Assembly: GCA_018302605.1 (NCBI GenBank)
Contig: JAGVZN010000025.1
Location: 2,693-66,692, forward strand
Source: Candidatus Woesearchaeota archaeon
GTDB taxonomy: Archaea; Nanobdellota; Nanobdellia; Woesearchaeales; GW2011-AR9
Direction: 5' to 3'
Length of the DNA: 64,000 nucleotides
Shown here: positions 10,291 through 25,046 of the stretch, one piece after another
Numbering within the stretch: the stretch's first letter is position 1
Layout of the letters: every line of letters begins with the position of its first letter
Position numbers and translations under genes: made by a program
The notes under the pieces: generated by a model
What the model was told of the DNA's origin: nothing
What the model saw: the letters and a program-made list of their open reading frames with translations, nothing else
Databases searched by the model: none

Positions 10291-11793
10291 TTACCCCTTC
10301 ACATTGCCGATTGGCTTCAACGCCACGACCGGCCGGGTAATCCCCGCTTGATCTAAAGTATCGACAACAACGTCAATGTCTTTATACGCTTCTCCTGCTT
10401 CTTCGGCCAAACCTTTCATCGTTACGGCATGAACATAGATTCCCCGTTGTTCCATATCGTGCTGTAATTTTTCGCCTTTGATCGTACGCATCGCCTGCGC
10501 TCGGCTCATCGTCCTTCCAGCGCCATGGGCCGTAGAGGCAAAAGTCGTATCGGCGCTGTCCGTCCCTAAGAGAAGATATGATCCAGTTTCCATTGACCCG
10601 CCAAGGATGATCGGCTGGCCAATTTTTTGATATTCTGCCGGTAGATCTTTTGCCCGGGCTGGGCCAAAAGCGCGTGTTGCTCCTTTGCGATGGACGAGCA
10701 ATGTTTTTTCTTTTCCGTCAATGACATATTTTTCTAACTTGGCAATATTGTGAGCGACATCATATACAAGGTTCATTTCCATCTCTTCTGCCGTCCGGCC
10801 CAAAACCTTGCTGAATACTTCACGGATGCGGTGCGTGATGACTTGCCTGTTGGCAAACGCCATATTCGCCGCACAGGCCATCGCTTTAAAATAATCTTGT
10901 CCTTCCGGCGAATAAAATGGCGCACAGGCCAATTCTTTGTCGCGGATTTCAATGCCATATTGAGGCATGACATCTAAAAAGAGCCGTAGATAATCTGTAC
11001 CGACCTGATGGCCCATGCCTCTGCTGCCGCAATGGACCATCACGACAATCTGTCCCGGCTTGCTAATTCCCATCACTTTAGCTGCTTCTTTGTCAAAAAT
11101 ATTCTCTTCTTTCACGACTTGGATTTCTAGATAGTGATTACCGCTTCCTAAAGTTCCCAACTGATCAAAGCCGCGCTTGATCGCCCGATCTGTTACTTTG
11201 CTGGGATCCGCCCAGGTGATTTTCCCGTGATCTTCGATATGTTCGATATCGCGCGGCGTGGCCAAGCCTTTCTTCAGACACCATTGTGCACCGTCACGCA
11301 TGACTTCTTGGAATTCTTCTTTAGAAATCTTGATAAAGCCTTTACAGCCGACGCCTGCCGGGACAGCTTTGTATAATTCATCAACTAACTGCTTGATCTT
11401 TGGCTGAACTTGATCGATAGTCAGATTTGTCGTCATCAGGCGCATACCGCAATTGATATCAAAACCGATGCCGCCGGGCGAGATGATGCCTCCGGCATCG
11501 ACATCAAACGCGGCAACTCCACCGATCGGAAAACCATAACCCCAGTGGCCGTCAGGCATACAATAGGCATAGCCAATAATGCCCGGTAGTGTGGCTACAT
11601 TGGTCACTTGTTCAAAAACACCCGCATCCATGCTCTTGATCAATTCTTCGTTGGCAATAATTCGTGCGGGAACGCGCATCCCTTTCTTGTACGATATTGG
11701 CAATTCCCAAGTCGTATCATTGATCTTCTTTAATTCTGGCGGAGGGCCGGCGGGTTTTTGGTCATGTTCCATAGTCTGGTTGTTCTTTGGCAT
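10291..11793 (-). CDS. rtcB: RNA-splicing ligase RtcB (tRNA exon ligase)
   Basis: Full-length match to the RtcB pattern (GFDINCG, HCGSRGMGHQ, HGAGR). The start may be the second ATG at 11772, given the TATA box at 11797-11806. Confidence 0.9.
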   Translation of the reverse strand: MPKNNQTMEHDQKPAGPPPELKKINDTTWELPISYKKGMRVPARIIANEELIKSMDAGVFEQVTNVATLPGIIGYAYCMPDGHWGYGFPIGGVAAFDVDAGGIISPGGIGFDINCGMRLMTTNLTIDQVQPKIKQLVDELYKAVPAGVGCKGFIKISKEEFQEVMRDGAQWCLKKGLATPRDIEHIEDHGKITWADPSKVTDRAIKRGFDQLGTLGSGNHYLEIQVVKEENIFDKEAAKVMGISKPGQIVVMVHCGSRGMGHQVGTDYLRLFLDVMPQYGIEIRDKELACAPFYSPEGQDYFKAMACAANMAFANRQVITHRIREVFSKVLGRTAEEMEMNLVYDVAHNIAKLEKYVIDGKEKTLLVHRKGATRAFGPARAKDLPAEYQKIGQPIILGGSMETGSYLLLGTDSADTTFASTAHGAGRTMSRAQAMRTIKGEKLQHDMEQRGIYVHAVTMKGLAEEAGEAYKDIDVVVDTLDQAGITRPVVALKPIGNVKG

Positions 11794-22866: not shown

Positions 22867-23952
22867 ATGATCCACGATCTGCTTTTGGAAAGGGAACAGC
22901 GTCGAACAATCTCTAAGCTCGGTTTGGATTTAATGATTACACCCGAGGGGAATATTAAAGTAGTTGAAATTAACGGGGTAAATTCGGGGAGTTCCGGTGT
23001 CCGAGAATTAACGGGCAGGGATATTGATTTGGAGATGATCACCGATCTCGCTCAGAATGGCCTTCCTCTGTTTCATCTTGGAAAGTTGAAAGATCAGGTT
23101 TTTCCTCATTTTGTCTCTGAATTATCTCATCAGCAGCTCTTGGCACAAAAATGGATGCATCCACGCGCTCCTCAGAAAACCGCGCGTTTTGTTTTACCAA
23201 TCGTCCCGGAGTCGTCAGATATTCTTGAAGGGATAATCTGGAATGCCGATAGTGATTATTATGTTTTTAATGAGCGGAAATACCTTCTGATCAACCCCTT
23301 TGCGGTTGAACATGCGGCGGGTGATAAATCACGAGTTCATGCTTTGTTTCAGGGCGATCTTTTAGCTCCACTACGGCCGAAAATGGCCTTTGTTGTTCGG
23401 GCAAATAAAGAGTGTGATGTTTCAGATTTTAAACCAAATACGACATATTTGGTTCTAAAACCAACAGATGAAATGATCGGCCGTAATGTGATCGTTGTCC
23501 CTACGGAAGATGTTTTCTGTCCTGATGGAAGTTTAAAAGAGCATCCTTTAGCTGCCTATCGGCGTCGTGAGGAAGGTTGGTATCAAGAACCGAATGTCAT
23601 CATGGAAGAATTGATCTCCAGTAAAAAAATCGGCTCTTCACGAACAGGGAAAGAGCATAATGGGTGTATGCGTTACCTGATTTTGGTGGAGAGCGATAAA
23701 GGTGAAATCACGATCAAGCATTACGGGGGATATTGGCGTCTTGCACCGAGTTCAATCCAAGATTCTAACCTCCAAAGACAGCTTGTTGCAAATTATTCTA
23801 ATGGTGCTATTCCAGAACATATTTCTGATGATGATCTTGCGGAGGTAAGGAAATGTGTTGATACTTTTGTTCCGGTTCTCTATCGCCGTATGCTTCGTCT
23901 GCCTATTAATGACCGGCCAGATGATCTTCCGCTAGAAGCGTATTGTTATTGA
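22867..23952 (+). CDS. ATP-grasp-like ligase family protein (tentative)
   Basis: VVEINGVNSG and YLVLKPTDEMIGRNV..GCMRYLILVE patterns resemble ATP-grasp folds. Confidence 0.5.
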   Translation: MIHDLLLEREQRRTISKLGLDLMITPEGNIKVVEINGVNSGSSGVRELTGRDIDLEMITDLAQNGLPLFHLGKLKDQVFPHFVSELSHQQLLAQKWMHPRAPQKTARFVLPIVPESSDILEGIIWNADSDYYVFNERKYLLINPFAVEHAAGDKSRVHALFQGDLLAPLRPKMAFVVRANKECDVSDFKPNTTYLVLKPTDEMIGRNVIVVPTEDVFCPDGSLKEHPLAAYRRREEGWYQEPNVIMEELISSKKIGSSRTGKEHNGCMRYLILVESDKGEITIKHYGGYWRLAPSSIQDSNLQRQLVANYSNGAIPEHISDDDLAEVRKCVDTFVPVLYRRMLRLPINDRPDDLPLEAYCY

Positions 23953-24040
23953 TCAGTATCTGATTTATTGAGGTTTTTTCGATAGGGTCTTTTCTTGCGA
24001 AAGATTTAAGTATTTTGTTCTTCGAAATCTGCTCCATTAT

Positions 24041-24194
24041 ACGGCTGTGGTCAAGTGGTACGCGCTAAGGTTTCTGCGGAAACCCGCTGACCTTGCCCGC
24101 GCAAGATGACACGAGCTTCCCACGAAAATATTTTCGGAATAAGCTTGTAGTCCGGGTTCGATAGATATGTAATCCGAATGTCCCGGCAGCCGTA
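24041..24194 (+). tRNA. tRNA-Gly(CCC) interrupted three times (D-loop, 37/38, T-loop)
   Basis: Hand-folded. Acceptor ACGGCTG/CAGCCGT with C2:G71, G3:C70 and A73. D stem GTCA/TGAC is separated by a 46-nt insert (24061-24106). Anticodon stem CGAGC/GCTTG with loop TTCCCA, a 19-nt intron (24123-24141) and A38. T stem CCGGG/CCCGG has an 18-nt insert (24162-24179). A TATA box lies about 28 nt upstream. Confidence 0.55.
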
Positions 24195-24198
24195 TTTT

Positions 24199-24546
24199 TT
24201 ATATTAACCCTAAGCTGACCTTTAATGCCTCATTTACTTTCTCTACTGTTTCTTCATCTAATCGTCCTATTCTTTTGATGAGCCTTTCTTTATCAACAGC
24301 TCTAATTTGATTTAGAAGTACTTTTGAAGTCTTTTCTATTTCTGCGTTCTCTTTCGTGATCAAAACCTCGATTGGAAATACTTTTTCCGTATGCTGGGAG
24401 GTGATTGGCGCAATGATGGTCATCGGGCTATATTTGTTTCCGATATCGTTTTGGATAATAATTGCAGGTCGCAATTTTTTGATTTCGTGTCCAATAGTAG
24501 GATCAAGACTTACCGTCCAAATATCTCCTCTCTTTATCTCTTTCAT
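24199..24546 (-). CDS. mazF: MazF/PemK-family endoribonuclease toxin
   Basis: IKRGDIWTVSLDPTIGHEIKKLRPAIIIQND and QIRAVDKERL motifs. Confidence 0.85.
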   Translation of the reverse strand: MKEIKRGDIWTVSLDPTIGHEIKKLRPAIIIQNDIGNKYSPMTIIAPITSQHTEKVFPIEVLITKENAEIEKTSKVLLNQIRAVDKERLIKRIGRLDEETVEKVNEALKVSLGLI

Positions 24547-24765
24547 TTAGTCCCAGCTAGGTGAAGCACTTTCCCACTCTTTGTTCAGCTCTTTGTCTTC
24601 TGTTGCTTTTACTTTATATGCGGTAACTAGCTCTCTTACAAGGTTCTTGTGTTTAACTTCAGAGACAACCCTCTTAATAACTTCATCATAGCTCTCATCA
24701 TCAGTTTTAATTTCATCTAGGACATTTTTTGTACTTTTATGAATTTTAACTGTTGTCGTTTCCAT
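24547..24765 (-). CDS. putative antitoxin (COG1753-like, VapB/MazE functional analogue)
   Basis: A small gene abutting mazF (its stop at 24547 is adjacent to the mazF start at 24546). The KIHKSTKNVLDEIK..ESYDEVIKRV pattern is typical of archaeal antitoxins. Confidence 0.6.
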   Translation of the reverse strand: METTTVKIHKSTKNVLDEIKTDDESYDEVIKRVVSEVKHKNLVRELVTAYKVKATEDKELNKEWESASPSWD

Positions 24766-24850: not shown

Positions 24851-25046
24851 GGGCGCGTAGTTCAGTGGTACTTCGCTGGAATTCCAATGGTTTGCCGGAA
24901 GCACAACAGAATGCACCGTTCGCAACGGTGAGATCTCGGGTTCAATCAGATGTCACGTCATCTGAAAGACGAAGCGACTTCGCAGATTTGCTCAGTCGCG
25001 AATAATTTAGAGAGGTCGTGAATCTTTGAAAATCCCGACGCGTCCA
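24851..25046 (+). tRNA. tRNA-Ala(CGC) with a D-loop insert and an 86-nt T-loop intron
   Basis: Acceptor GGGCGCG/CGCGTCC with the G3:U70 Ala identity pair. D stem GTTC/GAAT is split by about 38 nt (24871-24908). The anticodon arm CACCG-TTCGCAA-CGGTG is intact. T stem TCGGG/CCCGA has the loop TTCAA[24946-25031]AT. Confidence 0.75.

What the first reader, a model, noticed from the sequence alone, without database searches (positions are those of the whole stretch)
24041..24194. tRNA-Gly(CCC) broken by three insertions (D-loop 46 nt, 37/38 19 nt, T-loop 18 nt)
Hand folding yields a canonical cloverleaf only after removal of three segments. The Gly identity elements C2:G71, G3:C70 and A73 are present. 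The first pair is an unusual A1:U72. Three introns in one tRNA is rare and is known mainly from Thermoproteales.
Basis: partly seen in the sequence, partly recalled or inferred. Interest (0 to 1): 0.6.

Follow-up and report, generated by a model that had tools for sequence, protein, structure and literature searches.

The report
Three-intron glycine tRNA gene, Woesearchaeon
This is a real glycine tRNA gene of a tiny groundwater archaeon (Woesearchaeota, DPANN), broken by three short introns that the archaeal tRNA-splicing enzyme must cut out; it is a known kind of gene structure that standard tRNA finders miss.

Summary
Window 24041-24194 (+) is a 154-nt gene. Removing 46 nt (D-loop, 20/21), 19 nt (37/38) and 18 nt (T-loop, 59/60) leaves a 71-nt cloverleaf, which ARAGORN calls tRNA-Gly(CCC). 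ARAGORN and Rfam find nothing in the raw DNA.

The 37/38 and 59/60 introns sit in perfect bulge-helix-bulge (BHB) motifs. The D-loop intron has one A·A mismatch in its 4-bp central helix.

The decisive evidence is comparative. Genomes of the same order (65 of 401 sampled, plus close relatives) carry the same gene, with the same A1:U72 start, holding none, one, two or all three of these introns. The junctions are the ones I predict. Intronless copies pass Rfam at 59-69 bits. Exon bases 32 and 57 covary with their intron partners.

The genome encodes one EndA, RtcB and a CCA-adding enzyme. EndA is a single unit and lacks the Nanoarchaeum-type specificity loop.

Three introns per tRNA is the published archaeal maximum, reported from Thermoproteales. 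Heavy tRNA disruption in DPANN has already been noted (PMC5829648). This scan has also reported many such genes before, on other DNA and in this genome.

Verdict: a new member of a known kind, of modest interest.

The parts
23997..24012 (+). Putative archaeal promoter: purine-rich BRE-like GCGAAAG followed by the TATA-like box ATTTAAGTA, about 36-29 nt upstream of the tRNA 5' end
   Evidence: Read directly. A TTTAAA/TTTATA-type box peaks at -33 to -29 upstream of the orthologous genes in relatives. Inferred, not tested.
24041..24059 (+). Exon 1: acceptor 5' strand (A1-G7), U8, G9, D-stem 5' strand, D-loop up to position 20
   Evidence: Matches residues 1-19/20 of orthologues that continue without an insert (G010).
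24060..24105 (+). Intron 1, 46 nt, D-loop 20/21 (24061-24106 gives the same product). Near-canonical BHB: central helix AGTG/CGCA has 3 pairs plus one A·A mismatch; bulges GU|A and AG|A; long intron-internal helix
   Evidence: Introns at the same site occur in G006, G134 and G041. No other copy in this genome.
24106..24122 (+). Exon 2: A21, D-stem 3' strand, A26, anticodon stem 5' strand, loop positions 32-37 (UUCCCA). Anticodon CCC at 24119-24121
24123..24141 (+). Intron 2, 19 nt, canonical position 37/38. Perfect hBHBh': central helix UUCC/GGAA, bulges CA|C and UA|A, 4-bp intron helix GAAA/UUUC
24142..24162 (+). Exon 3: A38, anticodon stem 3' strand, 4-nt variable loop, T-stem 5' strand, T-loop 54-59 (UUCGAU)
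   Evidence: In G010 this exon is followed directly by exon 4.
24163..24180 (+). Intron 3, 18 nt, T-loop 59/60. Perfect hBHBh': central helix UUCG/CGAA, bulges AU|A and UG|U, 3-bp intron helix
24181..24194 (+). Exon 4: U60, T-stem 3' strand, acceptor 3' strand, discriminator A73. No CCA is encoded
24195..24200 (+). Oligo-T tract (TTTTTT) directly after the discriminator; likely archaeal transcription stop
   Evidence: Read directly. Inferred from general knowledge of archaeal oligo-T terminators.
10294..11610 (-). RtcB RNA ligase gene, the enzyme expected to join the exons (same contig, 13 kb away)
   Evidence: PF01139, 572 bits, at G000:C17:12986-14302

Best explanation
A working tRNA-Gly(CCC) gene interrupted by three protein-spliced (bulge-helix-bulge) introns.

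Proposed pathway. The 154-nt precursor is transcribed from a TATA/BRE-type promoter and ends at an oligo-T tract. Each intron pairs with the four exon bases just upstream of its 5' splice site. This forms a 4-bp helix flanked by two 3-nt bulges, and the D, anticodon and T stems serve as the outer helices. The genome's single EndA cuts after the second base of each bulge, six cuts in all. RtcB joins the four exons (19 + 17 + 21 + 14 nt) into a 71-nt tRNA. The CCA-adding enzyme then completes the 3' end.

Shown here: the gene, the exon/intron borders, the motif geometry, conservation and covariation across relatives, and the presence of the enzymes.

Inferred: transcription, actual cutting and joining, and the order of intron removal.
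For: - The spliced product is called tRNA-Gly(ccc) by ARAGORN, 71 nt.
- BHB geometry: the central helix is 4/4 bp at 37/38 and 59/60 and 3/4 bp at 20/21, and the outer helix is 3/3 at all three.
- Orthologues from the same order begin and end with the same ACGGCTG...CAGCCGTA. Among 60 unique genes parsed, 10 had no intron, 19 had only 37/38, 12 had only 59/60, 13 had both, 2 had D+T and 3 had all three.
- Intronless orthologues score 58.9-69.3 bits on RF00005 and are called Gly(ccc). Ours is 65/71 identical to one of them after splicing.
- Across orthologues the central helix has at least 3/4 bp in 35/35 introns at 37/38 and 30/30 at 59/60. Junctions slid by 7-9 nt reach this in only 14% of cases.
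- Covariation: exon C32 pairs with intron G in 19/19 cases and U32 with A in 14/16. A57 pairs with U in 13/15 and G57 with C in 12/15.
- A TATA-like box lies at about -30 upstream of orthologues and of this gene.
- Enzymes: EndA has N-terminal and catalytic domains, and residues aligning with the M. jannaschii catalytic triad are conserved. RtcB and the CCA-adding enzyme are present.
- No ORF of 50 aa or more overlaps the gene.
- It is the only copy of this gene found in the genome.
Against:
- The three-BHB precursor fold is 7.6-9 kcal/mol above the computed MFE (-48.8/-50.2 against -57.8), so enzyme binding or co-transcriptional folding must favour it.
- The D-loop motif has an A·A mismatch next to the D stem. 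The only EndA lacks the loop insertion present in Nanoarchaeum EndA, which was proposed there to broaden specificity (PMC3488258).
- No orthologue was found in the three same-genus genomes, which are 72-89% complete.
- Related genomes are not independent samples.
Confidence: 0.88

Rival explanations
1. A decaying pseudogene: a former tRNA-Gly(CCC) that picked up insertions and is no longer processed into a working tRNA. GGG codons would then be read by another glycine tRNA.
For: The D-loop BHB is imperfect at 3/4 bp. I did not find a tRNA-Gly(UCC) to rule wobble reading in or out. The genome is only 90% complete. There is no expression data.
Against: All exon stems are intact and all identity bases are present. 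All three inserts keep splice-motif geometry, which would decay quickly without selection. The same imperfect first pair occurs in the G134 orthologue. Promoter-like and terminator-like signals are intact. Nearly every tRNA gene found in this genome is interrupted in the same way, so interruption is the norm here and not a sign of decay.
Confidence: 0.07
2. A different fold or isotype. One example is the single-intron 'tRNA-Phe(AAA)' that ARAGORN proposes once only the T-loop intron is removed. Another would be a non-tRNA structured RNA.
For: With the T-loop insert removed, ARAGORN -i returns an 85-nt tRNA-Phe(aaa) with a 51-nt intron. The unconstrained MFE fold of the 154 nt is not the three-BHB fold.
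Against: That alternative has a 2-bp D stem, two G·U pairs in the anticodon stem and a 20-nt unpaired extra arm. It arises only because ARAGORN can model just one intron. The intronless orthologues show what the mature sequence is. Rfam finds no other family here even at E<=10.
Confidence: 0.02
3. A real spliced gene, but the D-loop insert is removed at other borders or by another route than EndA cutting at a BHB. For example, cutting could occur at the single CCC bulge seen in the MFE fold.
For: In the MFE fold the insert forms GCGC/GCGC plus a 3-nt CCC bulge, not the BHB register. The BHB register has one mismatch.
Against: Only removal of exactly 46 nt at 20/21 (or the equivalent 21/22) restores the 7-nt D-loop AGUGGUA found in intronless relatives. 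Three other genomes have introns at the same site. Two of those have 4/4 central helices and all share the same bulge layout.
Confidence: 0.03

Closest known systems
Multiple-intron tRNA genes of Thermoproteales, e.g. Pyrobaculum calidifontis tRNA-Glu(UUC) and P. islandicum tRNA-Pro(UGG) (Sugahara et al., as summarised in PMC4390854 and PMC4033280)
   Same: Up to three short BHB-type introns in one tRNA gene, at 37/38 plus non-canonical sites in the D and T arms. They are invisible to standard tRNA finders and are removed by EndA and RtcB.
   Different: The lineage is different: Woesearchaeota/DPANN, mesophilic groundwater, 44% GC. The endonuclease here is a single alpha-type unit, with no second subunit found. 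It lacks the NEQ-type loop and is colinear with loop-less M. jannaschii EndA. Thermoproteales use (alpha-beta)2 enzymes with the Crenarchaea-specific loop. The motifs here are strict or nearly strict, not relaxed.
Disrupted tRNA sets of DPANN archaea with alpha4-type EndA (Kaneta et al. 2018, PMC5829648; ARMAN epsilon2 EndA, PMC3488258)
   Same: Same superphylum. [quoted passage not shown]
   Different: That work ties disruption to the L3 (Nanoarchaeum-type) loop. The EndA here shows a 6-residue gap at exactly that loop when aligned to 3iey_A. This particular gene and its intron distribution across the order are not described there, as far as I could read.
Canonical archaeal 37/38 tRNA intron with hBHBh' motif (Marck and Grosjean 2003; from my own knowledge)
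   Same: Intron 2 is a textbook example: a 4-bp helix made by loop positions 32-35, two 3-nt bulges, and cuts after the second bulge base.
   Different: Introns 1 and 3 use the same geometry but are built on the D and T stems.

Membership tests
Archaeal BHB (EndA-spliced) tRNA intron | Two 3-nt bulges on opposite strands separated by a 4-bp helix, with flanking helices, at each exon-intron junction | tested here: met
   37/38 and 59/60: central helix 4/4, outer helix 3/3, inner helix 3/3. 20/21: central helix 3/4 (A·A mismatch), outer 3/3, inner 2/3. The D-loop intron is therefore near-canonical, not perfect.
Archaeal BHB (EndA-spliced) tRNA intron | Excision at the bulges restores a canonical cloverleaf | tested here: met
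   ARAGORN calls the 71-nt product tRNA-Gly(ccc). The product is 65/71 identical to an intronless orthologue.
Archaeal BHB (EndA-spliced) tRNA intron | Splicing endonuclease and RNA ligase encoded by the organism | tested here: met
   EndA at C14:111181-111441, 100.6 bits on PF01974 plus PF02778. RtcB at 572 bits.
Archaeal BHB (EndA-spliced) tRNA intron | Introns are actually removed from the RNA | not testable with these tools
No RNA data were available.
tRNA (Rfam RF00005) | Score at or above the gathering threshold of 29 bits | tested here: not met
   The raw gene gives no hit at gathering or at E<=10, as expected with three inserts. The spliced sequence could not be submitted because the tool takes stored DNA only. 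Intronless orthologues score 58.9-69.3 bits.
tRNA-Gly, archaeal/eukaryal type | Anticodon NCC in a 7-nt loop with U33 and a purine at 37 | tested here: met
   The loop UUCCCAA forms after splicing, with CCC at 24119-24121.
tRNA-Gly, archaeal/eukaryal type | C2:G71, G3:C70 and discriminator A73 (identity set recalled from the literature, not tested biochemically) | tested here: met
   Read directly from the sequence.
tRNA-Gly, archaeal/eukaryal type | G1:C72 first pair, the usual state | tested here: not met
   The first pair is A1:U72. It is conserved in all orthologues found, which come from 65 of 401 sampled genomes of the order plus close relatives, including intronless genes. It is a lineage trait, not a folding error.
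Split or permuted tRNA genes (Nanoarchaeum, Caldiarchaeum, Thermofilum) | Exons encoded at separate loci or in permuted order | tested here: not met
   All four exons are colinear within 154 nt.
Transposed/mobile tRNA intron families (Fujishima et al. 2010, as cited in PMC4033280) | Intron sequence repeated in other tRNA genes of the same genome | tested here: not met
   blastn-short of the three introns against the genome returned significant matches only to themselves. The listed matches elsewhere, for the 46-nt intron, are 12 nt or shorter with E >= 1.9.

The most novel reading that the evidence does not exclude
In Woesearchaeales, tRNA introns may have multiplied at three fixed hot spots (20/21, 37/38, 59/60) while keeping strict BHB motifs. 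A plain single-unit EndA would then suffice: one that lacks the Nanoarchaeum-type loop, shows no room for the crenarchaeal or ARMAN-type loops, and carries only a lysine-rich N-terminal tail. That would mean heavy tRNA-gene disruption does not need a broadened-specificity endonuclease, contrary to the usual co-evolution picture. It would also make this one gene a natural series for studying intron gain and loss, since relatives carry none, one, two or three of its introns.
Probability: 0.4. Interest if true: 0.5.

Novelty: new member of a known kind. Interest (0 to 1): 0.32.

Why it matters
Genes like this are why DPANN genomes seem to lack essential tRNAs. ARAGORN finds 2 tRNAs in this 1.16-Mb genome without intron handling. 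About 30 appear once BHB introns are removed in silico. Correct annotation changes estimates of genome completeness and decoding capacity.

The gene also comes with a clean comparative series. The same tRNA is found with 0-3 introns at fixed sites across one order. That series could be used to study how archaeal tRNA introns are gained and lost, and whether a simple alpha-type endonuclease can handle D- and T-loop introns.

Tried and rejected
- ARAGORN found nothing in the raw window. With its intron option on the whole genome it returned nothing at this gene.
- Rfam at the gathering threshold and at E<=10 returned no tRNA here. The only hit was a chance snoRNA match nearby at E=4.7.
- ARAGORN -i after removing only the T-loop intron gave 'tRNA-Phe(aaa)'. 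I rejected it: it has a 2-bp D stem and a 20-nt unpaired arm.
- I searched the same-genus genomes G001-G003 for the gene's 3' end. Hits were no more frequent than in the control, and no orthologue was recovered. These genomes are 72-89% complete, so this does not show absence.
- The search for a second EndA subunit gave one weak hit (E=0.14), which is TruD pseudouridine synthase.
- The introns are not a repeat family within this genome. The shared ACGCGCUA start of the D-loop introns here and in G041 is too short to call homology.
- I looked for a C/D-box guide RNA in the 46-nt intron by eye. There is a CUGA but no convincing C box, and the intron is too short.
- The unconstrained MFE fold does not reproduce the BHB register of the D-loop intron.

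Full report
**1. What is at the coordinates**

Window 24041-24194 (+) lies in a 246-nt gap between a 361-aa ORF of unknown family (ends 23952) and a MazF-type toxin gene on the minus strand (24199-24546). No ORF of 50 aa or more overlaps it.

ARAGORN finds no tRNA in the whole window. Rfam finds none at the gathering threshold, and none within 23900-24300 at E<=10.

The stretch starts with ACGGCTG and ends with CAGCCGT plus A. That is a perfect 7-bp acceptor stem with a discriminator, followed by TTTTTT.

**2. Exon-intron structure**

I applied the archaeal bulge-helix-bulge rule. The rule is a 4-bp central helix flanked by two 3-nt bulges on opposite strands, with a cut after the second base of each bulge. 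It reproduces the canonical 37/38 case exactly.

| Part | Window coordinates | Size | Position |
|---|---|---|---|
| Exon 1 | 24041-24059 | 19 nt | |
| Intron 1 | 24060-24105 | 46 nt | D-loop 20/21 |
| Exon 2 | 24106-24122 | 17 nt | |
| Intron 2 | 24123-24141 | 19 nt | 37/38 |
| Exon 3 | 24142-24162 | 21 nt | |
| Intron 3 | 24163-24180 | 18 nt | T-loop 59/60 |
| Exon 4 | 24181-24194 | 14 nt | |

The joined 71-nt sequence is called tRNA-Gly(ccc) by ARAGORN. It has a 7-bp acceptor stem, a 4-bp D stem, the D-loop AGUGGUA, a 5-bp anticodon stem, the loop UUCCCAA, a 4-nt variable loop, a 5-bp T stem and the T-loop UUCGAUU.

C2:G71, G3:C70, A73 and A1:U72 are all as described.

Motif quality:
- **37/38:** central helix UUCC/GGAA 4/4, bulges CA|C and UA|A, inner helix 4 bp.
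- **59/60:** central helix UUCG/CGAA 4/4, bulges AU|A and UG|U, inner helix 3 bp.
- **20/21:** central helix AGUG/CGCA with 3 pairs and an A·A mismatch next to the D stem, bulges GU|A and AG|A, and a long intron-internal helix.

The D, anticodon and T stems act as the outer helices, so all three motifs can form at once. That combined fold evaluates at -48.8 to -50.2 kcal/mol, against an unconstrained MFE of -57.8. This gap is a caveat, but nearest-neighbour rules penalise 3-nt bulges that the enzyme binds.

**3. Comparative test (the decisive evidence)**

A BLAST of the 154 nt against 60 related genomes returned piecewise matches that stop exactly at my exon borders.
- In G010, residues 1-20 run straight into residue 66 onward, and 102-122 run straight into 141-154. 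That genome has no D-loop and no T-loop intron.
- In G020, residues 66-82 abut 102-122, so it has no 37/38 intron.
- In G039 the gene is 71 nt in total.

A pattern built from the two gene ends hit 65 of 401 genomes sampled from the order. The reversed-pattern control gave 0 hits.

I parsed 60 unique orthologous genes with a profile aligner that allows long inserts:

| Intron state | Genes |
|---|---|
| None | 10 |
| 37/38 only | 19 |
| 59/60 only | 12 |
| 37/38 + 59/60 | 13 |
| D-loop + T-loop | 2 |
| All three | 3 (this genome, G006, G053) |

One further parse looked like a D-loop-only intron but is an exon-fragment duplicate (see section 7).

- Intronless orthologues score 58.9-69.3 bits on Rfam tRNA, and ARAGORN calls them Gly(ccc).
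- The spliced product here is 65/71 identical to one of them.
- All orthologues share A1:U72, so that pair is a lineage trait.

Across orthologues the central helix has at least 3/4 pairs in 35/35 introns at 37/38 (21 of them 4/4). The same holds for 30/30 introns at 59/60 (26 of them 4/4). When junctions are slid by 7-9 nt, 14% reach 3/4 or better and 2% reach 4/4.

Exon bases covary with their intron partners:
- C32 with G in 19/19 cases.
- U32 with A in 14/16 cases, plus 2 U·G.
- A57 with U in 13/15 cases.
- G57 with C in 12/15 cases, plus 2 G·U.

Related genomes are not independent. However, the introns differ in length and sequence, so this is good evidence that the splice motif is under selection.

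D-loop introns at 20/21 also occur in G006, G134 and G041. G006 and G041 have 4/4 central helices. G134 shows the same mismatched first pair as here. G053 has its D-loop intron two bases upstream, which probably reflects a separate insertion.

**4. Signals and machinery**

- A TATA-like box peaks at -33 to -29 upstream of the orthologues. This gene has GCGAAAG-ATTTAAGTA at 23997-24012.
- CCA is not encoded. A CCA-adding enzyme is present.
- The genome has one EndA gene, a 231-aa ORF with the N-terminal and catalytic Pfam domains.
- Aligned to M. jannaschii EndA (1a79), it is colinear over 171 residues and keeps the catalytic Tyr/His/Lys (Y167, H177, K208 by my count).
- Aligned to the Nanoarchaeum alpha subunit (3iey_A), it shows a 6-residue gap exactly where that enzyme has its lysine-rich specific loop in front of the catalytic His. 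That loop is described in PMC3488258 and named L3 in PMC5829648.
- The only other weak endonuclease-domain hit is TruD.
- The enzyme therefore looks like a plain alpha4-type unit with a lineage-specific ~60-aa lysine/glutamate-rich N-terminal tail. This fits introns that keep strict motifs. Whether it forms a homotetramer was not tested.
- RtcB lies 13 kb away in the window, at 10294-11610 (-).

**5. Organism and genome context**

EndA's closest relatives are groundwater 'Candidatus Woesearchaeota' MAGs at up to 94% identity. The assembly is 1.16 Mb, 44% GC and 90% complete.

ARAGORN without intron handling finds 2 tRNAs, one of them miscalled. I ran a simple survey: T-arm plus acceptor stem, optional BHB excision at 59/60, then ARAGORN with one intron. 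It finds 32 full-length calls at 30 loci, against 0 in the reversed genome. Seventeen carry a 59/60 intron and only one is intronless. Interrupted tRNA genes are the rule here.

This gene is the only tRNA-Gly(CCC) found. A tRNA-Gly(GCC) with two introns is on C29. The survey is incomplete, and ARAGORN's anticodon labels for multi-intron genes are unreliable.

**6. Comparison with what is known**

Three introns is the published maximum for archaeal tRNA genes, reported from Thermoproteales (PMC4390854, PMC4033280). Kaneta et al. 2018 (PMC5829648) surveyed DPANN, including one Woesearchaeota MAG. They reported marked tRNA disruption with alpha4-type EndAs and stated that missing tRNAs imply unidentified disrupted genes.

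This gene is therefore a new member of a known kind. It works like the Thermoproteales genes but sits in another lineage, with a simpler endonuclease and strict motifs.

Earlier notes of this scan describe many multi-intron tRNA genes in Woesearchaeota, including others in this genome and some with four to six introns. I did not test those notes, and they did not set my score.

**7. Limits**

- No same-genus orthologue was found.
- The D-loop motif is imperfect.
- The introns are not repeated elsewhere in the genome, so nothing here speaks to their mobility.
- Several relatives carry duplicated fragments of exon 1 or exon 4 next to the gene. I only noted these in passing.

Noticed in passing
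window 24199-24765 (-): A MazF/PemK toxin (115 aa, PF02452, E=5e-36) and a small antitoxin-like gene (72 aa, DUF7557/VapB) start 4 nt after the tRNA's 3' end. They fill the gap to the next tRNA gene.
   Followed up: partly
window 24851-25046 (+) (G000:C17:27543-27738): The next gene downstream is another interrupted tRNA. ARAGORN calls it Ala(cgc) after an 86-nt insert at 59/60 is removed. Rfam sees only a weak partial hit (17.3 bits).
   Followed up: partly
L004 (G020), L153 (G183:C1:43461-43721), L157 (G398:C69:17092-17319): In three relatives, a degenerate extra copy of the first ~12-20 nt of the tRNA-Gly(CCC) gene lies 60-160 nt upstream of the intact gene.
   Followed up: no
L005 (G010), L038 (G033), L129 (G118:C7:106076-106274), G120:C37:21697-21860, L167 (G141), L164 (G221): In several relatives the last 12 nt of the gene (CCGGCRGCCGTA) recur once or twice 58-130 nt downstream. 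In G010 and G033 they are preceded by a conserved AAGGCTGACGG...CCTTTGTCTA segment. This could be a footprint of an integrated or intron-like element.
   Followed up: no
G000:C21:22065-22178 (+): ARAGORN labels this gene tRNA-Gly(tcc). By the BHB rule, however, the loop reads UUCGUA before a 37/38 intron, and the discriminator is U. It is more likely tRNA-Thr(CGU). No tRNA-Gly(UCC) was found in my partial survey.
   Followed up: partly
L040:1474-2169 (-) (G000:C14): The only EndA has a ~60-aa lysine/glutamate-rich N-terminal extension. Only the closest relatives share it. It lacks the Nanoarchaeum-type loop in front of the catalytic His.
   Followed up: partly
whole genome G000: Only one clearly intronless tRNA gene was found (Pro-GGG, C27:2357-2429). 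17 of 30 surveyed tRNA loci carry an intron at T-loop 59/60.
   Followed up: partly
window 22867-23952 (+): The 361-aa ORF directly upstream of the tRNA has no Pfam match at E<=0.01.
   Followed up: no
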